This document shows positions 6,544 to 62,813 of a stretch of DNA of 64,000 nucleotides, piece by piece. The notes beneath the pieces were generated by a model. It saw nothing but the letters and a program-made list of their open reading frames with translations, was not told where the DNA came from and made no database searches. Origin of the DNA: an uncultured Candidatus Saccharibacteria bacterium (GTDB lineage Bacteria; Patescibacteriota; Minisyncoccia; Phycocordibacterales; Phycocordibacteraceae); contig CAYUQB010000001.1 of NCBI GenBank assembly GCA_964446735.1, positions 199,465 through 263,464 on the forward strand, written 5' to 3'. Both the position numbers and the translations under genes were made by a program. Numbering within the stretch: the stretch's first letter is position 1; each line of letters begins with the position of its first letter.

Positions 6544-6625
6544 GCCGAGGTGGCGAAATTGGTAGACGCGCCTGCCTTAGGAGCAGGTTCCGCAAGGAAT
6601 GGAGGTTCGAGTCCTCTCCTCGGCA
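6544..6625 (+). tRNA. tRNA-Leu (TAG), type II
   Basis: Acceptor gccgagg/cctcggc. The anticodon stem is cctgc/gcagg with loop ctTAGga. The variable arm is long and the T-loop is ggttcgagtcc. Confidence 0.8.
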
Positions 6626-6628
6626 CAC

Positions 6629-6679
6629 TTGACAAAGTGTAAATAATTGTGTAATGTCAATGTCGGAAGGACATTGACA
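6629..6679 (+). promoter_or_regulatory. σ70-like promoter with an overlapping perfect 10-bp inverted repeat (operator-like)
   Basis: TTGACA (6629-6634), a 17-nt spacer, then TAATGT (6652-6657). Immediately after comes TGTCAATGTC-ggaag-GACATTGACA (6655-6679). It lies upstream of an AAGGAGG SD and the ATG at 6717. Confidence 0.45.
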
Positions 6680-6716
6680 TGTCCTAGCAACAACATCAGC
6701 TGGCTCAAGGAGGGCC

Positions 6717-7973
6717 ATGTTCATGAGCGACACCACAGACACCGACGGTACGGTCCCTCCGACCGGTCCGCCGGAGAATGGGGCCCCTCATGTGGTGGCC
6801 CCCGAAGATCCGACTTCCGGTCCGACGCAAGTGCAGAAGACCATGGAAGCCATCCTCGACAGCCCGCATCTCTACCGCAGGGTCGTGATGTGGACGCTGA
6901 TCGTCTATGGCGTCCTCACCGTCCTCTCGCTCGCCACGTGGTGGGTGATCCTCTTTCGCGTCGGAGAGCTCAAGGGCAACCTCGGGTTCTGGTTCCTGCT
7001 TCCAGTGCTGGTCCATCTGGGCCTGTCGCTGAAGGTGGTTTCCACCTCCGTCGTCGCCTGGTACTACACCTTCGAGATTCCGATCAAGAAGGCGAAGACC
7101 GGTCTTCGATTCGTCCCGGCCGGCGTCATGAACCTCGTGAAGCTCCCTCGGAACATGCAGGAGATCAACATTCCTGCTCACCAGGACAAGATCTTCTGGG
7201 AGGACGAGAAGACGCCCCTACCTAAGGGCCTCACTCGCCCGATCTTCATGTTCACGAGCTCTGCGGTTCGTGGGCGCGGGGGCAAGGTCAAGGGCCAGGC
7301 GCAACAGAGCGTCGGCGTTGGCTGGTTCGTCCTGTGGGGCATCACCCATGTCCCCAACTTCGAGGCGAACTCCAGATCGATCCGGGAAACGAACAGCCAG
7401 CTTCGGAAGATCTCCACGGCCGTTGTCAGCGAGAATATCGCCGCCAACGACCTGGATGCCCTTCTGACCAACCTGGCCCCGTTCAACAGCCACCTGGACG
7501 ATCGTCTGCGCGAGCGGACAGTCAACTGGGGGATCGAGATCTTCGAGGTTGGTCTGTTCAAGATCAACCCGTCGCATGAGTACGCGACGGCCCAGCGCGA
7601 CGCCGCCAAGGCGCCGTTCGAAGCCGAAGCGCTCGCGACTGCGGCGCGCCAAAAGGCCCAAGAACGGGTCTGGCTCGGGGAGGCCGATGGTAAGGCTGAA
7701 CAGGCCCGCGCCCGCGGACCCCTGGTCGGTCGAGCTGAAGGTCTCGAACGCATCGTGAGCAGTCTCAAACTGCGAGACGGTCTACCCGTCCTTGCTGCTG
7801 AGACGGCCCGCGACGCTATGCTAAATGCGGAATGGGGCGTACTCGGCGCCGAGGGCGGTATGCGTGATCTGATGGGCATGGCGAAGGGCGCTCACGCGGC
7901 TCTCCAGCCGCGTGATCGCCAACGCCGTACCAACAACCGCCAGCGGCGTCCACAGCCGCAGACGCAGACATAG
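6717..7973 (+). CDS. SPFH/band-7 (stomatin/HflK/C-like) domain membrane protein with a Pro-rich N-terminus and a basic C-terminal tail
   Basis: A TM helix (VMWTLIVYGVLTVLSLATWWVILF) is followed by a band-7 core (WGIEIFEVGLFKINPSHEYATAQRDAAKA, then a coiled coil). GC is about 65% by eye, against 50-55% in the flanks. Confidence 0.7.
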   Translation: MFMSDTTDTDGTVPPTGPPENGAPHVVAPEDPTSGPTQVQKTMEAILDSPHLYRRVVMWTLIVYGVLTVLSLATWWVILFRVGELKGNLGFWFLLPVLVHLGLSLKVVSTSVVAWYYTFEIPIKKAKTGLRFVPAGVMNLVKLPRNMQEINIPAHQDKIFWEDEKTPLPKGLTRPIFMFTSSAVRGRGGKVKGQAQQSVGVGWFVLWGITHVPNFEANSRSIRETNSQLRKISTAVVSENIAANDLDALLTNLAPFNSHLDDRLRERTVNWGIEIFEVGLFKINPSHEYATAQRDAAKAPFEAEALATAARQKAQERVWLGEADGKAEQARARGPLVGRAEGLERIVSSLKLRDGLPVLAAETARDAMLNAEWGVLGAEGGMRDLMGMAKGAHAALQPRDRQRRTNNRQRRPQPQTQT

Positions 7974-7982
7974 GAGAGCGGG

Positions 7983-8630
7983 ATGAATCCCTTTGAAAAC
8001 ATCATCCTCTACCTGCCCATCCTCGCGGTGCTCGTCATCATCGTGGGCATCGTGCTCTGGCGATCTTCGGATCGCGAGAAGCCGAAGCACTCCGATGAGA
8101 ACGGAGCAGACGAACAAGAGTCGAACCTTGACGCTCCCGCTACGGAGCATCATGCACCGACTCCGCACGTCGCTCCGGCGGCAGCAAGCCACGAACACCA
8201 CGAGGGCGGGGGACATCACTCCCGCATCCTCGAGGCGTTCCTCTGGTTCGCGCTGATCGCAGTGATCTGCGCGGCCGGGATCGGGGGCTGGCGGTGGCTC
8301 AACGCCCCCACCAAGCCCTACCGGGCCACACAGATCGAGGCTCTGGCACAACCAGAGCAGACGATCTGCCCTACGCTCGATGACACCAGTGGGGAAACCT
8401 CCTGCGTCTTCGACAAGGGGTACCGCATTCCCGTGAGCCTGCAAGGCACACAGATCTGCGGCAGCGGCCTCCTGGCCACGCTCCGCTCCTACTACTACGT
8501 GGAGCGCGAGAATGGCCCGGTCCTTGGACCGGTGGCCTGGACCGGCAGCGATGAAGACCGTGGGCGTGATAAGACGTTGCTCATCGGCGAAGGTAGCGGA
8601 AGCGTTACCTATCGCCCCTGCAGCAGCTAA
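7983..8630 (+). CDS. Hypothetical membrane protein with a His-rich acidic linker and a Cys-containing C-terminal domain
   Basis: 215 aa. An AGGAGAG SD lies 5 nt upstream. There are two TM helices and the stretch HHAPTPHVAPAAASHEHHEGGGHH. It is co-directional with the SPFH gene and 9 nt downstream of it. Confidence 0.5.
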   Translation: MNPFENIILYLPILAVLVIIVGIVLWRSSDREKPKHSDENGADEQESNLDAPATEHHAPTPHVAPAAASHEHHEGGGHHSRILEAFLWFALIAVICAAGIGGWRWLNAPTKPYRATQIEALAQPEQTICPTLDDTSGETSCVFDKGYRIPVSLQGTQICGSGLLATLRSYYYVERENGPVLGPVAWTGSDEDRGRDKTLLIGEGSGSVTYRPCSS

Positions 8631-8662
8631 CGACTCGCCTGCTAGGACATGTGAACTTGAAC

Positions 8663-60687: not shown

Positions 60688-60710
60688 GACGACACCTAAA
60701 GGAGTGCGCG

Positions 60711-60860
60711 ATGGAAGAGTGGCTTGATTCCGTCCGTCCTGTGCTCCCTATCCTGCTTCCCTACGGAATAGCGCTGGGCGTCATGTTCTTCTGTGCGCTT
60801 GCTTCATCAAGCGGCGACACCGAACAACCGTTCTTCACTCCCGTCGACGACGATGAGTGA
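60711..60860 (+). CDS. Small membrane peptide 3 (49 aa)
   Basis: AAAGGAG lies 7 nt upstream of ATG. The sequence is MEEWLDSVRPVLPILLPYGIALGVMFFCALASSSGDTEQPFFTPVDDDE. Confidence 0.45.
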   Translation: MEEWLDSVRPVLPILLPYGIALGVMFFCALASSSGDTEQPFFTPVDDDE

Positions 60861-60973
60861 CAACGAAGGGCCGTGCGTCCCCTGTGGGACTCACGGCCTC
60901 GTCGTTTTACTATCCACTTCGACTTTAGGAGCATTGAGTTGAGCACGTATAGTGATCAGTAGGAGGACTCCAC

Positions 60974-61096
60974 ATGGGTATCCTAATCATCTACACCCCG
61001 GACTTTTGCGTCCGGATGGGTTTCGGCTTCTGGGAAGCCTGCTACCGCGACTGGCTGCGTCTGTGCGGCGCCACGCTGCCCCCAACGCAGTCCTAG
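60974..61096 (+). CDS. Small Cys-containing peptide 4 (40 aa)
   Basis: AGGAGG lies 6 nt upstream of ATG. The sequence is MGILIIYTPDFCVRMGFGFWEACYRDWLRLCGATLPPTQS. Confidence 0.4.
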   Translation: MGILIIYTPDFCVRMGFGFWEACYRDWLRLCGATLPPTQS

Positions 61097-61119
61097 CAGG
61101 AACGTCCCACTACCGACAC

Positions 61120-61160
61120 GAAAACGCGCCGCCGGCCTCACAGCCAGCGGCGCATTTCGT
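61120..61160. terminator. Bidirectional terminator hairpin downstream of groEL
   Basis: gcgccgc-cggcctcacagcca-gcggcgc, flanked by A/T runs (gaaaa on the plus strand and ttttc on the minus strand). Confidence 0.5.
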
Positions 61161-61169
61161 GATGAGAGG

Positions 61170-62813
61170 TTAGAAATCCATTCCCCCGCCCATGCCACTC
61201 ATATCAGGAGCAGCCTTCGGCTCCGGAATCTCGGCAATAGCTGCCTCGGTGGTGAGAAGGATTGCTGCGGCGGAGACCGCGTTCTCGATTGCTGATCGCG
61301 GCATCTTTACTGGATCAACGATACCGGCGGCAAGCATGTCATCGATGACCTGATCGGTGACCGCGTTATACCCCGCATTGGCCTTGCCGTCCTGTACCGA
61401 ACGGAGAATCTTATCTCCCTCCTTTTCTTTTCCGGCGTTGAACGCAATCTGGAGAAGGGGCTGCTCAAGTGCGCGCACGACTGTGTTGAAGCCATTGAGC
61501 TCATCATCCGAGAGCTTCTTCTTCGCCATGCCCTCGTCGAGCTTCTTTGCTGCCTTGGCAAGCGCAGTGCCACCGCCCGGCACAATACCCTCTTCGATAG
61601 AAGCTTTCGTTGCCTTCACGGCGTCATCGATCTTGTCCTTGAGATACTTCATCTCGGTCTCGGTTGCAGCACCCACGCGGATGACCGCGACACCACCGGT
61701 GAGTTTTGCGATACGTTCCTCAAGCTTTTCTGTATCGAACTTGGAGGTGGTGTTTTCTGCAAGCGTCTTGAGCTGCTTTACGCGCGCTTCGATGTCTGCC
61801 TTCTTGCCCTTGCCACCTACGAAGGTAGTCGCATCCTTAGTAGCTACCACGCGGGCTGCCTTACCAAGCATGGAGAGGGTCGCGTTCTCAAACGTAGTAC
61901 CGGTATCAGCAGAGATGACCGTGCCGCCCACGACCGCTGCAATGTCAGCAAGCAGCTCCTTTTTCTTGTCTCCATATCCGGGAGCTTTTATCGCAAGCAC
62001 GTTGAACGTGCCACGCAGCTTATTGAGTACGAAGGTAGTGAGCGCTTCACCCTCGACATCGTCAGCGACGATGACGAGCTCCTTCTTTCCTGACTGCGCG
62101 ATCTTTTCAAGAAGCGGGAGAATTTCTTGCACGCCACCGATCTTCTTGTCGGTGAGGAGAATAGCGGCATCACGCATTTCAGCTTCCATGCGCTCTGGAT
62201 TAGTCACCATGTAGGCACTGACATATCCCTTATCAACCTGCATGCCTTCGACGACTTCATAGGAAAGGTCCATCCCCTGAGATTCCTCGACGGTAACGAC
62301 CCCGTTCTTCCCGACCTTCTCGATAGTCTCAGCGATGATGGTTCCCAGCTCCTCGCTCTCAGCAGAAATGCTTGCGACCTGCTTCACCTCGCTCTTGCCA
62401 GCGATGGGCTTTGCCATAGCTTTAAGTTCCGCAACAGCTGCGTCGCGTGCTGCTTCCATGCCGGCACGTATTGCCATGGCGTTTGCACCTTTCGTGATGT
62501 GAGAGATGCCCTCGTTCACAAGTGCCTCAAGAAGTACCACCGTGGTGGTGGTTCCATCTCCTGCGACGTCGTTGGTCTTGCTGGCCACCTCCTTCACAAT
62601 CTCCGCACCCATATTCTCGAACTTGTTCTTGAAGGAGATTTCCTTTGCGATGGAGACGCCATCGTTGGTGATGCGCGGACCACCATAGCTTTTTTCAAGT
62701 ACGACATTGCGCCCTCGAGGCCCCAACGTCACCTTCACGGCCTGCGCCGCATTCACGATGCCGGTGTGAATGGCCTTACGTGCGTCCTTACCGAAGAGAA
62801 TTTCTTTCGCCAT
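61170..62813 (-). CDS. groEL: Chaperonin GroEL
   Basis: The N-terminus is [15 protein letters not shown]. The ATP-site motif [10 protein letters not shown] is present and the tail is GGM (MGGGMDF). Confidence 0.95.

What the first reader, a model, noticed from the sequence alone, without database searches (positions are those of the whole stretch)
6600..61200. The chromosome is punctuated by about ten short GC-rich islets carrying ORFans with strong Shine-Dalgarno sites
Besides 6.6-8.6 kb, compositionally similar patches occur at 13.40-14.04, 17.56-19.45, 22.86-23.54, 26.90-27.89, 33.10-33.70, 36.30-37.40, 38.20-38.73 and 60.34-61.17 kb. By eye they are about 60-68% GC with high GC3. Each sits between conserved housekeeping genes. 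Each encodes only small or unknown proteins: membrane peptides, a lipoprotein, secreted proteins, an ICMT-like methyltransferase and a degenerate Nudix-like protein. Most have near-consensus SDs (AGGAGG, AAGGAG, GGGAGG), and several have their own σ70-like promoter and terminator. I see no integrase, transposase or flanking repeat. Possible explanations are repeated small-cassette acquisition from a higher-GC donor, a remnant of mobile element degradation, or an unusual class of accessory micro-islands. All three are guesses.
Basis: partly seen in the sequence, partly recalled or inferred. Interest (0 to 1): 0.7.

Follow-up and report, generated by a model that had tools for sequence, protein, structure and literature searches.

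The report
GC-rich accessory gene islets in Paceibacteria
Nine short GC-rich patches in this tiny candidate-phyla-radiation (Paceibacteria) chromosome are its variable accessory genes, sitting in fixed slots between conserved core genes; this is a small-scale form of ordinary flexible-genome structure, not a new kind of element.

Summary
The patches are real. Listed islets have 60.9% GC against 54.3% for the rest. Six of nine exceed every same-length background window. The excess lies almost wholly at codon position 3: GC3 is 0.79 in islet ORFs and 0.58 in backbone genes, with GC1 equal. Spacers inside islets have backbone GC.

The organism is a Paceibacteria (Patescibacteria) with a strongly syntenic backbone. 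In about 60 related loci the flanking core genes are collinear, while the junctions holding the islets vary from about 30 bp to 5.6 kb.

The islet genes are not all ORFans or recent insertions:
- Islet 1 (SPFH gene plus partner), I4, I6 and part of I2 have very divergent positional homologues in some relatives.
- I7a, I7b and the next gene form a three-gene cassette found in another slot elsewhere.
- I8 belongs to a family of more than 100 clusters seen in three contexts.
- I2a, I3c and I5b match only themselves.

I found no integrase, transposase, flanking or dispersed repeats, phage hits or defence hits.

Best reading: these are genomic islets, meaning hypervariable slots filled by exchange or replacement within the Paceibacteria gene pool. 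The closest relative found has backbone GC3 of 0.8. The insertion mechanism and the cause of the GC3 excess remain unresolved, because the islets' dinucleotide signature looks native.

The parts
6627..8650 (+). Islet 1, directly downstream of tRNA-Leu(tag) at 6544-6626. I1a (6717-7973) is an SPFH/Band 7 membrane protein of 418 aa. I1b (7983-8630) is a His-rich two-TM protein of 215 aa.
   Evidence: GC 62%, z=5.0. GC3 is 0.78 and 0.76. Pfam Band_7 E=8e-12. AGGAGG and AGGAG Shine-Dalgarno sites. Positional homologues at 20-41% identity lie in the alr-pilin slot of 9 relatives. The arrangement tRNA-Leu, large TM protein, small His-rich TM protein recurs in others. L162 has a 52% homologue behind the same tRNA. 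An independent Logan contig, L081, matches window 6597-9261 at 100%.
13398..14036 (-). Islet 2, a self-contained mini-operon between gyrA and a methyltransferase gene. It runs promoter-like 14029-14001, I2a 13692-13934 (80 aa), I2b 13481-13669 (62 aa), terminator hairpin 13451-13427.
   Evidence: GC 60.4%, z=2.8. GC3 is 0.74 and 0.86. Promoter-like site TTGACA-17-TACTAT (10 of 12) and a 10-bp GC-rich hairpin followed by a T run. AGGAG Shine-Dalgarno sites. I2a matches only itself. I2b has one 53% homologue and a 25-aa match in the same slot of L001.
17539..19564 (+). Islet 3, between a metallo-beta-lactamase-fold gene and rpsA-like S1. I3a is 17624-17845. A pseudogene-like stretch at 18051-18837 has a frameshift near 18190 and an in-frame stop at 18340. 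I3c (19030-19347) is a predicted lipoprotein with lipobox LAAC. A terminator hairpin lies at 19404-19449.
   Evidence: GC 62.8%, z=5.3. Continuous GC3 periodicity with a phase change. GC3 reaches 0.94 in I3c. No tblastn hit in any related locus, and I3c matches only itself. L161 carries a different GC-rich ORFan (356 aa, GC3 0.80) in the same slot. Logan contig L164 spans both junctions at 100% identity. The hairpin has a 20-bp stem.
22821..23581 (+). Islet 4. I4 (22896-23534) is a 212-aa soluble protein with a degenerate Nudix-box-like motif, REVAQETGV.
   Evidence: Bulk GC 57.3%, z=1.4, not significant. GC3 is 0.71. Pfam NUDIX is below threshold. The AF2 model failed, pLDDT 40. A positional homologue (46-55% identity) lies after the same MASE1 histidine kinase in L161, where its GC3 of 0.58 is native.
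26893..27928 (+). Islet 5, between an HGTP-anticodon-domain gene and rpsU. I5a (26975-27337) is a 120-aa protein with 3-4 TM segments. I5b (27493-27834) is a 113-aa protein with a signal peptide. Each has its own promoter-like site.
   Evidence: GC 60.6%, z=3.5. GC3 is 0.92 and 0.82. Promoter-like sites TTGACT-18-TATAAT (11 of 12) at 26912-26941 and TTGACT-18-CATAGT at 27425-27454. No hits in relatives, and I5b matches only itself. The slot is 34-1562 bp long in relatives.
33100..33700 (-). Islet 6. I6 (33137-33604, 155 aa; an alternative upstream start lies at 33694) is a soluble protein with weak similarity to the C-terminal half of PRPP synthase.
   Evidence: GC 60.6%, z=2.8. GC3 is 0.74. 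It belongs to a small family of about 10. Positional homologues lie in the trxB-g33980 slot of L084 (49%), L166 (40%) and L083 (33%), with GC3 at or below their backbone. Most relatives have only about 330 bp here. NCBIfam ribP_PPkin E=5.5e-5, far below the cut-off.
36262..38129 (+). Islet 7 cassette. I7a (36312-36716) has 4 TM segments and 134 aa. I7b (36828-37394) is an ICMT/PEMT-family membrane methyltransferase of 188 aa. g37401 (37401-38129, 242 aa) is low-GC and belongs to the same cassette. A terminator-like hairpin lies at 37403-37427.
   Evidence: GC 61.5%, z=4.1 for 36.3-37.4 kb. GC3 is 0.84 and 0.75, while g37401 has 0.57. Pfam PEMT E=2e-13 and ICMT E=5e-12. NCBIfam isoprenylcysteine methyltransferase scores 107 bits against a cut-off of 160. 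Homologues of all three genes (49%, 50% and 28%) sit together between rpsP and KH/trmD in L165.
38130..38803 (-). Islet 8, directly downstream of tRNA-Glu (38804-38876). I8 (38201-38725) is a 174-aa soluble protein of a widespread uncharacterised family. A promoter-like site lies at 38801-38773.
60332..61169 (+). Islet 9, between lemA and groEL. It holds three mini-ORFs: 60568-60699 (43 aa), 60711-60860 (49 aa) and 60974-61096 (40 aa). Two have a TM segment.
   Evidence: GC 58.5%, z=2.1. GC3 is 0.77, 0.62 and 0.83. Shine-Dalgarno sites are AGGAGG, AGGAG and AGGAGG. TM-like segments found. No related loci covered this region, so variability here is untested.

Best explanation
The window comes from a small, streamlined Paceibacteria (Patescibacteria, candidate phyla radiation) chromosome. 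Its core genes keep the same order across the family. The GC-rich patches are its 'genomic islets': short hypervariable slots (0.6-2 kb) at fixed junctions between core genes, three of them beside tRNA genes.

Each slot holds one to three small accessory genes, mostly for membrane, lipoprotein or secreted products. Several have their own Shine-Dalgarno site, promoter-like site and terminator hairpin.

Slot contents turn over quickly. In relatives the same junction is empty, holds unrelated genes, or holds a very divergent version of the same gene.

Inferred, not shown: the contents are exchanged or replaced within a gene pool shared by related Paceibacteria whose genomes range from about 38% to 65% GC. 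DNA would enter by uptake and recombination rather than by integrase-driven elements. This genome's occupants would come from a GC3-rich source (GC3 near 0.8, as in the closest relative found) and would not yet have drifted to the backbone value (0.58).

The insertion mechanism itself is unknown.
For: **Composition**
- Islet ORF GC3 is 0.79 against 0.58 in the backbone, p=3e-9, with GC1 equal.
- Islet codon usage differs from both the backbone and the highly expressed genes. It correlates better with core genes of GC-rich relatives (r=0.94) than with the window's own backbone (0.79).

**Taxon and synteny**
- gyrA and trxB neighbourhoods are collinear in 37 full-length genome loci and about 24 long metagenome loci, all labelled Patescibacteria, Paceibacteria, Parcubacteria or Kaiserbacteria.

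**Slot variability**
- The five junctions around gyrA and four around trxB range from about 30 bp to 5.6 kb in relatives.
- Ten islet ORFs have no tblastn hit in any related locus.

**Replacement or turnover**
- SPFH-type genes occupy the tRNA-Leu slot in many relatives at only 20-52% identity, while neighbours are 68-87% identical. Their nearest neighbours disagree with those of gyrA.
- L161 has a different GC-rich ORFan in the islet-3 slot.

**Mobility**
- I8 homologues occur in three unrelated contexts and keep GC3 at 0.65-0.72 in backbones of 0.40, 0.58 and 0.65.
- The I7a-I7b-g37401 trio recurs in a different housekeeping slot in L165.

**Family-wide pattern**
- In 67 relatives, unique-gene GC3 regresses towards about 0.55-0.65 whatever the backbone GC3 (0.40-0.81).

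**A GC-rich source exists close by**
- The closest relative found, L082 (trxB 90%, ftsZ 85%), has backbone GC3 of 0.79-0.83.

**Real joins**
- Independent Logan contigs reproduce islets 1 and 3 with their junctions at 100% identity.

**Literature**
- HGT in groundwater Patescibacteria is reported to be mostly within the phylum (PMC12455944).
- Replacement flexible genomic islands at fixed loci are described in aquatic prokaryotes (PMC4033161).
Against: - The islets' GC-normalised dinucleotide signature is closest to the window's own backbone (delta* 40; null 24±8) and to its same-GC relatives L161 (37) and L001 (41). It is far from the GC-rich relatives (92-130).
- Spacers inside the islets have backbone GC of 54.1%. 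The foreign signal is therefore limited to codon position 3.
- Flanking core genes show no GC3 gradient towards the islets. Recombination tracts from a GC-rich donor did not extend into the flanks.
- No donor sequence was found. The best non-self identities are 49-69%. Positional homologues of I4 and I6 in relatives are not GC-enriched.
- The regression-to-the-mean pattern is partly inflatable by spurious ORF calls.
- Other lineage-specific genes in the window are not GC-rich: Nudix 28251-28673, GNAT 31665-32114, g35905, g37401, g41946 and the histidine kinase.
- Islet 9 has no comparative data.
Confidence: 0.55

Rival explanations
1. The islet genes are long-term residents that evolve very fast. 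Their high GC3 is produced in place by a gene-restricted process. Candidates are GC-biased gene conversion in slots that recombine often within the population, or a different balance of codon selection in weakly constrained envelope genes.
For: - Positional homologues exist for islet 1, I4, I6 and part of I2.
- The dinucleotide signature looks native: delta* is 40 to the window's own backbone against 92-130 to GC-rich relatives.
- Spacers have backbone GC.
- The GC excess is confined to third codon positions.
- In low-GC relatives the module in the tRNA-Leu slot is also above backbone GC3. For example L007 has 0.73 against 0.45, and L009 has 0.69 against 0.54.
Against: - Synonymous sites of neighbouring core genes should feel the same mutational regime. 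There is no spill-over into the flanks.
- Positional homologues of I4 and I6 in relatives have GC3 at or below their backbone.
- In GC-rich relatives the slot genes are below the backbone, which a GC-raising process does not predict.
- I8 and the I7 cassette occupy different contexts in other genomes.
Confidence: 0.2
2. The islets are decayed remnants of integrative mobile elements (prophages, integrative or conjugative elements) that once inserted at tRNA genes and intergenic sites and have lost their recombinases and ends.
For: - Three islets lie beside tRNA genes: Leu, Ser and Glu.
- Islet 3 contains a pseudogene-like ORF with a frameshift and an in-frame stop.
- In L157 an I8 homologue lies next to an element with a serine recombinase, a primase-like gene and an AAA ATPase.
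- Composition is atypical.
Against: - No integrase, transposase or phage gene appears in the window.
- No flanking direct repeats or dispersed repeats.
- PHROGs gave only weak or uninformative hits, and IMG/VR scans found nothing.
- tRNA adjacency is not above chance. There are 11 tRNAs in 64 kb, so about 18% of the window lies within 500 bp of one.
- Several slots are occupied by homologous genes across the family, which decay of independent insertions would not give.
Confidence: 0.1
3. There is no real feature. The patches are ordinary gene-to-gene variation in GC, or a metagenome assembly or binning chimera that stitched DNA from a GC-richer co-occurring strain into the contig.
For: - Three of the nine patches are within about 2 sd of background bulk GC.
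- The source is a metagenome-assembled genome.
- A GC-rich sister lineage exists in nature.
Against: - Six patches exceed every background window, and the GC3 distributions barely overlap.
- Independently assembled Logan contigs span islets 1 and 3 and their junctions at 100% identity.
- Islet boundaries coincide with gene boundaries, promoter-like sites and terminators.
- The dinucleotide signature looks native.
- Caveat: the Logan contigs come from one sequencing run that may be the same data as the MAG.
Confidence: 0.05

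Closest known systems
Genomic islets and flexible genomic islands, especially 'replacement' islands at fixed loci (López-Pérez et al. 2014, PMC4033161; streamlined Methylophilaceae, PMC10872708)
   Same: - Variable content sits at the same chromosomal junctions between syntenic core genes.
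- Occupants are often cell-envelope proteins.
- Different or very divergent genes of similar architecture occupy the same locus in relatives, as with the SPFH plus His-rich pair behind tRNA-Leu.
- No dedicated integrase is present.
   Different: - The scale is much smaller: 0.6-2 kb with 1-3 genes, against roughly 10-100 kb.
- Comparisons here are between species or genera, not strains.
- No elevated divergence or compositional tract appears in the flanking core genes.
- The composition shift is towards higher GC and is confined to third codon positions.
Horizontally transferred genes and genomic islands reported in groundwater Patescibacteria (PMC12455944)
   Same: Same phylum and class. That study infers that most transfers occur between Patescibacteria. 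Several related loci here come from aquifer and groundwater metagenomes.
   Different: The reported islands were 2.7-45 kb and were called by IslandViewer. The islets here are below that size range and would mostly count as single-gene events. No donor was identified here.
Classical tRNA-linked genomic islands and integrative elements
   Same: Atypical composition, patchy distribution, and three islets abutting tRNA genes.
   Different: No integrase, no direct repeats of the tRNA 3' end, a far smaller size, and a slot behind tRNA-Leu that is occupied across the family.
Integron gene cassettes
   Same: Small, mostly single-gene units of unknown function. Some are compact units with their own translation signals.
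   Different: There is no IntI, no attI and no attC-like shared hairpins. The units are dispersed around the chromosome, not in an array, and several carry their own promoter-like sites.
Bacterial ORFans as usually described (short, AT-rich, fast-evolving). This rests on my own knowledge of Daubin and Ochman-type analyses, not on a paper read here.
   Same: Short genes with a restricted distribution that evolve fast and lie between conserved genes.
   Different: Here they are GC3-rich relative to the host, not AT-rich.

Membership tests
Classical genomic island / integrative element | Integrase or recombinase gene within or at the edge | tested here: not met
   Pfam scans of about 60 ORFs covering the window found none.
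Classical genomic island / integrative element | Flanking direct repeats (att sites), typically a duplicated tRNA 3' end | tested here: not met
   Only short chance-level repeats were found in each islet plus its flanks. No dispersed repeats link the islets.
Classical genomic island / integrative element | Atypical base composition and patchy distribution among relatives | tested here: met
   GC3 is 0.79 against 0.58. Most islet ORFs are absent from about 60 related loci.
Replacement-type flexible genomic island | Same locus in related genomes holds different or highly divergent genes between conserved flanks | tested here: met
   Junction lengths range from about 30 bp to 5.6 kb with collinear flanks. 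The tRNA-Leu slot holds SPFH-type plus small TM gene pairs at 20-52% identity. The islet-3 slot holds a different ORFan in L161.
Replacement-type flexible genomic island | Signature of homologous recombination in the flanking core genes | tested here: not met
   GC3 in the 200 codons of core genes next to the islets shows no gradient (0.56-0.61 throughout). This is a composition proxy only. No population or strain data were available.
Replacement-type flexible genomic island | Variation between strains of one species | not testable with these tools
   The closest relatives retrieved are at 87% gyrA and 90% trxB protein identity. The only same-organism sequences were fragments of the same sample.
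Integron cassette array | IntI integrase, attI and attC recombination sites | tested here: not met
   No tyrosine recombinase (Pfam calls above). No shared imperfect inverted repeats at islet ends.
Prophage remnant | Homology to phage proteins or viral contigs | tested here: not met
   PHROGs gave only weak hits: phrog_200 'lipoprotein' at E=1e-4 for the SPFH protein, and an unknown-function family for the methyltransferase. Four IMG/VR scans found no relatives. These scans reach close relatives only.
Anti-phage defence island | Match to known defence-system proteins | tested here: not met
   PADLOC gave no hit for ten islet proteins.
SPFH / Band 7 (I1a) | SPFH domain above the Pfam gathering score, with N-terminal membrane anchor | tested here: met
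   PF01145 scores 46 bits against a cut-off of 23.6, E=7.9e-12. Two TM-like segments at residues 55-109.
ICMT / PEMT membrane methyltransferases (I7b) | ICMT or PEMT domain above the gathering score; multi-pass membrane protein | tested here: met
   PF04191 scores 51 bits (cut-off 25) and PF04140 scores 46.5 bits (cut-off 24). Three TM-like segments. The NCBIfam equivalog for protein-S-isoprenylcysteine methyltransferase is not reached (107 bits against 160), so the substrate is unknown.
Nudix hydrolases (I4) | Nudix domain above threshold with an intact GX5EX7REUXEEXGU box | tested here: not met
   PF00293 scores 17.7 bits against a cut-off of 21.1. Only the REVAQETGV half of the box is recognisable, from direct reading of the sequence. 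The AF2 model was unusable at pLDDT 40.

The most novel reading that the evidence does not exclude
Paceibacteria may share a family-wide pool of integrase-free micro-cassettes. Each would be a single gene or small operon carrying its own promoter, Shine-Dalgarno site and terminator. They would move between genomes of very different GC and repeatedly land in the same intergenic slots.

Alternatively, a gene-restricted process may hold accessory envelope genes at high GC3 inside a lower-GC chromosome. That would account for three observations together: the GC excess sits only at codon position 3, the spacers have backbone GC, and the dinucleotide signature looks native.
Probability: 0.15. Interest if true: 0.6.

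Novelty: new member of a known kind. Interest (0 to 1): 0.3.

Why it matters
Candidate-phyla-radiation bacteria have tiny genomes, and most of their lineage-specific genes have no known function. This window shows where the flexible genes sit in one such genome. They lie in a handful of fixed junctions in an otherwise rigid gene order, and they mostly encode envelope or secreted proteins. These are the products most likely to mediate contact with hosts and phages.

The work also gives three concrete leads:
- An uncharacterised family of more than 100 clusters (I8) that models confidently and has no characterised structural relative.
- A portable three-gene membrane methyltransferase cassette.
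- Very rapid GC3 divergence between close relatives. At 90% trxB identity, GC3 is 0.51 in the window and 0.82 in L082.

None of this changes current concepts of genome evolution. It extends the idea of flexible genomic islands to a very small scale in Patescibacteria.

Tried and rejected
1. **Structured RNA genes as the cause of the GC-rich patches.** Rfam at gathering threshold found only RNase P RNA and 11 tRNAs, all outside the islets. An E-value scan of 13.3-19.6 kb found nothing.

2. **Codon bias of highly expressed genes.** Islet codon usage differs from groEL, groES, S1, S21, lepA and ftsZ. Examples are CTG 0.35 against 0.09 and GAC 0.72 against 0.46. rpsU has GC3 of 0.79 but is conserved, and its GC3 is also above backbone in L161 (0.69 against about 0.6) and L166 (0.82 against about 0.66). 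It is therefore not part of islet 5.

3. **One search with 11 concatenated ORFans in the search for homologous proteins.** It returned nothing, not even the proteins themselves. It is invalid as a negative result and cost one search. The same trick worked with the exhaustive representative search.

4. **Recent transfer of rpsU.** The protein is 100% identical in L004, but the DNA is only 75-78% identical, like its neighbours.

5. **att-like or attC-like repeats.** None found.

6. **tRNA targeting.** Adjacency of 3 of 9 islets is not above chance with 11 tRNAs in 64 kb.

7. **Phage or defence origin.** PHROGs, PADLOC and IMG/VR were negative.

8. **Function of I8 from structure.** The model is good, but only a hypothetical protein matches. 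The afdb50 library was unavailable.

9. **Nudix fold of I4.** The model was too poor to search.

10. **Very close genome pairs as proof of cassette replacement.** L033 and L039 have 97% identical GyrA but only about 77% identical backbone DNA. The argument is therefore suggestive, not decisive.

11. **The 660-aa ORF at 56586-58568.** It has an odd codon-position GC pattern but is a genuine Thr/Gly/Pro-rich secreted protein, not an islet.

Full report

The window has 55.3% GC. The nine listed patches cover 14.5% of the window. They have 60.9% GC against 54.3% for the rest.

I compared each patch with all same-length windows outside the patches.
- Six are never matched by a background window: 6.6-8.6 kb (z=5.0), 17.56-19.45 (5.3), 36.3-37.4 (4.1), 26.9-27.89 (3.5), 13.4-14.04 (2.8) and 33.1-33.7 (2.8).
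- Three are marginal in bulk GC: 60.34-61.17 (2.1), 38.2-38.73 (1.8) and 22.86-23.54 (1.4).

The stronger signal is at the gene level.
- GC3 is 0.789±0.080 in 17 islet ORFs and 0.582±0.063 in 50 backbone genes (Mann-Whitney p=3e-9).
- GC1 is identical (0.61) and GC2 barely differs (0.47 against 0.42).

Some circularity exists for the smallest ORFs, whose frame I chose partly from GC3 periodicity. The large ORFs are simply the longest ORFs at their positions.

Spacers inside and at the islets have 54.1% GC. The 'islets' are therefore GC3-rich genes rather than uniformly GC-rich DNA.

Other GC-rich spots lie inside ordinary genes (a solute-binding protein gene, murJ and a Thr/Gly/Pro-rich secreted protein).

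**2. What organism and what surroundings?**

Backbone ORFs are housekeeping genes: clpB-like, IF-2, alr, gyrA, S1, pth, signal peptidase, rpsU, ybeY, ftsA, ftsZ, trxB, sua5, tsaD, a class-I tRNA synthetase, lepA, murJ and groES/EL. There are also 11 tRNAs and RNase P RNA.

GyrA finds 80 loci in species-representative genomes at 75-87% identity. Their records are labelled Patescibacteria, Parcubacteria, Paceibacteria, Kaiserbacteria or similar MAG names (several are auto-labelled 'uncultured Candidatus Saccharibacteria' or just 'bacterium'), and the contigs are 0.2-0.75 Mb. TrxB finds 74 metagenome loci.

The source genome itself is in NCBI on a 516,752-bp contig. It is also present, fragmented, in a Logan assembly of SRR12113420.

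**3. Synteny test**

Backbone genes from 4 to 43 kb are collinear in 37 full-length genome loci and about 24 long metagenome loci.

Ten islet ORFs have no tblastn hit in any of these loci: I1b, I2a, I3a-c, I4, I5a, I5b, I7a and I8.

The junctions that hold the islets vary in length in relatives:

| Junction | Length in relatives |
|---|---|
| MT-gyrA | 40-1775 bp |
| MBL-S1 | 117-2269 bp |
| S1-pth | 8-3716 bp |
| HGTP-rpsU | 26-1982 bp |
| alr-pilin | 710-5608 bp |
| trxB-g33980 | about 200-1959 bp, mostly about 330 bp |

These are hypervariable slots in a rigid backbone.

The window also holds lineage-specific genes that are not GC-rich. They are a true Nudix gene (28251-28673), a GNAT gene (31665-32114), g35905, g37401, g41946 and the MASE1 histidine kinase.

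**4. Are they ORFans?**

An exhaustive HMMER search of 1.84 billion cluster representatives used eight concatenated soluble islet proteins.

| Protein | Result |
|---|---|
| I2a, I3c, I5b | only themselves |
| I2b | one 53% homologue |
| I1b | two homologues at about 33% |
| I4 | one at 55%, two at about 29% |
| I6 | about ten at 30-54% |
| I8 | more than 100 at 27-69% |

I1a is an SPFH/Band 7 protein and I7b an ICMT/PEMT-type membrane methyltransferase. Ten of the 17 ORFs have TM-like segments or a lipobox. PHROGs, PADLOC and NCBIfam add nothing decisive.

**5. Genomic context of the homologues**

*(a) Islet 1.* SPFH-type genes lie in the same alr/tRNA-Leu-to-pilin slot in nine relatives at 20-41% identity. 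The arrangement tRNA-Leu(tag), a 370-470-aa TM protein, then a 160-220-aa His-rich TM protein recurs even where sequence similarity has vanished. A metagenome contig, L162, has a 52% homologue plus an I1b-like gene behind the same tRNA.

*(b) I4.* A positional homologue (46-55%) follows the same histidine kinase in L161. Its GC3 there is native at 0.58. L161 also has its own, unrelated GC-rich ORFan (356 aa, GC3 0.80) in the islet-3 slot.

*(c) I6.* Positional homologues occur in L084 (49%), L166 (40%) and L083 (33%). In L084 and L166, where it was measured, their GC3 is below their backbone.

*(d) I7 cassette.* Homologues of I7b (49%), the adjacent low-GC g37401 (50%) and I7a (28%) sit together in another genome between rpsP and KH/trmD. 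This is a portable three-gene cassette in a different housekeeping slot.

*(e) I8.* Homologues occur in three unrelated contexts.
- In L156 (69% identity) GC3 is native at 0.65.
- In L157 a serine-recombinase/primase element lies a few kb upstream of the homologue.
- In L167 (45% identity) the gene is GC3 0.70 in a backbone of about 0.40.

**6. Family-wide composition pattern**

In 67 related loci, genes without homologues elsewhere have GC3 pulled towards 0.55-0.65 whatever the backbone. The difference ranges from +0.17 in low-GC genomes to -0.19 in high-GC genomes. The window's +0.21 is the most extreme. SPFH slot genes behave the same way. Spurious ORFs could inflate this pattern. It also holds for the bona fide SPFH and I8 genes.

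The closest relative I could find is L082 (trxB 90%, ftsZ 85%, g33980 86%). Its backbone GC3 is 0.79-0.83, the same as the window's islets. GC3-rich lineages therefore exist very close by, and GC content evolves fast in this clade.

Islet codon usage correlates at 0.94 with core genes of GC-rich relatives and at 0.79 with the window's own backbone. It is not the usage of highly expressed genes.

**7. Evidence that complicates a simple import story**

- The islets' GC-normalised dinucleotide signature is nearest to the window's own backbone (delta* 40; random backbone samples 24±8, max 70) and to the same-GC relatives L161 (37) and L001 (41). It is far from GC-rich relatives, including L082 and its pool (92-130).
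- Flanking core genes show no GC3 gradient towards the islets.
- No DNA above 80% identity to any islet was found in about 165 retrieved loci.

Either the donors are same-genus lineages or elements that share the home signature, or a gene-restricted process raises GC3 in place. I cannot decide between these with the data available.

**8. Mobile-element hallmarks and artefacts**

- No integrase or transposase (all Pfam calls).
- No flanking or dispersed repeats.
- No viral relatives.
- tRNA adjacency (3 of 9 islets) is not above chance.
- Logan contigs assembled independently span window 6597-9261 and 14844-19614 at 100% identity. They cover islet 1 and islet 3 with their junctions. They come from a single run that may be the MAG's own data.

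**9. Expression signals**

About nine ORFs have AGGAG/GGAGG-type Shine-Dalgarno sites. The two best promoter-like matches in the scanned regions both precede islet genes: 14029-14001 before I2a (10 of 12) and 26912-26941 before I5a (11 of 12). Further promoter-like sites precede I5b and I8. Strong hairpin-plus-T terminators follow I2b, I3c and I7b.

Total counts are only 1-2 sd above shuffles, so these are plausible rather than proven. Islet 2 looks like a complete promoter-to-terminator unit. In islet 3, 18051-18837 looks like one gene broken by a frameshift and an in-frame stop.

**10. Conclusion**

The patches are genomic islets: the flexible genes of a streamlined Paceibacteria chromosome, concentrated in fixed hypervariable slots.

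Shown:
- The compositional anomaly and its restriction to codon position 3.
- The collinear backbone and the variability of the slots.
- Positional homologues for four islets.
- Different contexts for I8 and the I7 cassette.
- The absence of mobile-element hallmarks.

Inferred:
- Exchange or replacement within the Paceibacteria gene pool as the source (confidence about 0.55).
- Uptake and recombination as the route.

Unknown:
- The donor.
- The insertion mechanism.
- Why GC3 is high while the dinucleotide signature looks native.
- The functions of most products.

The closest known concepts are genomic islets and replacement-type flexible genomic islands (PMC4033161, PMC10872708), and intra-phylum HGT in Patescibacteria (PMC12455944). 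The finding is a small-scale member of that kind. It has one mildly unusual trait: ORFan-like genes that are GC3-rich rather than AT-rich. I rate interest at about 0.3.

Noticed in passing
window 8696-11538 (- strand): An array of four paralogous T4SS_pilin (PF18895) genes lies at 8696-8962, 9482-10213, 10214-10525 and 10522-11538. They share a roughly 31-nt repeat. The array is conserved in more than 50 related loci next to the variable tRNA-Leu slot. My first-pass ORF at 8847-9431 (+) overlaps the first pilin gene and may be a miscall.
   Followed up: partly
window ~33720-33860 (- strand), between I6 and g33980: An unlisted small acidic ORF (about 45 aa) reads MFMDDMQNDPVMGDEQETVGPMPEEETTEVAPEMPAEETGEEEVA. 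It is conserved at the DNA level in six relatives. L166 has a called 44-aa homologue at the same position, downstream of the 400-aa gene of unknown function.
   Followed up: partly
[not shown]
   Followed up: partly
L082 (Ga0207652_10077276) against window 30.3-35.2 kb: The closest relative found (trxB 90% protein identity) has GC3 of 0.79-0.83 where the window has 0.51-0.61. Across the family, backbone GC3 spans 0.40-0.81. GC content evolves very fast in this clade.
   Followed up: partly
window 56586-58568 (- strand): A 660-aa secreted protein is rich in Thr, Gly and Pro. It has poly-Gly runs of up to 15 residues, PTEPTAPT repeats and a 54-nt tandem repeat at 58305-58412. It has no Pfam match. 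It causes the GC-rich spot at 58.15-58.55 kb.
   Followed up: partly
window 27929-28189 (rpsU): Ribosomal protein S21 has GC3 of 0.79 although it is a conserved core gene. The same holds in L166 (0.82) and L161 (0.69). The high GC3 is intrinsic to the gene and is not part of islet 5.
   Followed up: yes
window 2819-3139 (+): A 106-aa ORF with a hydrophobic segment and GC3 of 0.76 lies between the aminotransferase and IF-2 genes. It has no Pfam hit.
   Followed up: no
L157 1-8741: In one population variant of the genome carrying the 69% I8 homologue, the upstream core genes are replaced. The replacement is an element at 46% GC encoding a serine recombinase, an AAA_25 ATPase, a DnaG-type zinc-ribbon protein and a peptidoglycan-binding protein. 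This is a candidate integrated mobile element of a Patescibacteria genome.
   Followed up: no
window 28251-28673, 31665-32114, 35905-36261, 41946-42458, 20751-22820: These lineage-specific genes (Nudix hydrolase, GNAT acetyltransferase, two unknowns and a MASE1 hybrid histidine kinase) are absent from nearly all related loci. They have ordinary or low GC3 of 0.48-0.68. The accessory genome here is therefore compositionally mixed.
   Followed up: partly
window 55706-56034 (- strand): RNase P RNA (bacterial class A) scores only 118.5 bits against a gathering score of 100. This is a divergent copy, as is common in candidate-phyla-radiation genomes.
   Followed up: no
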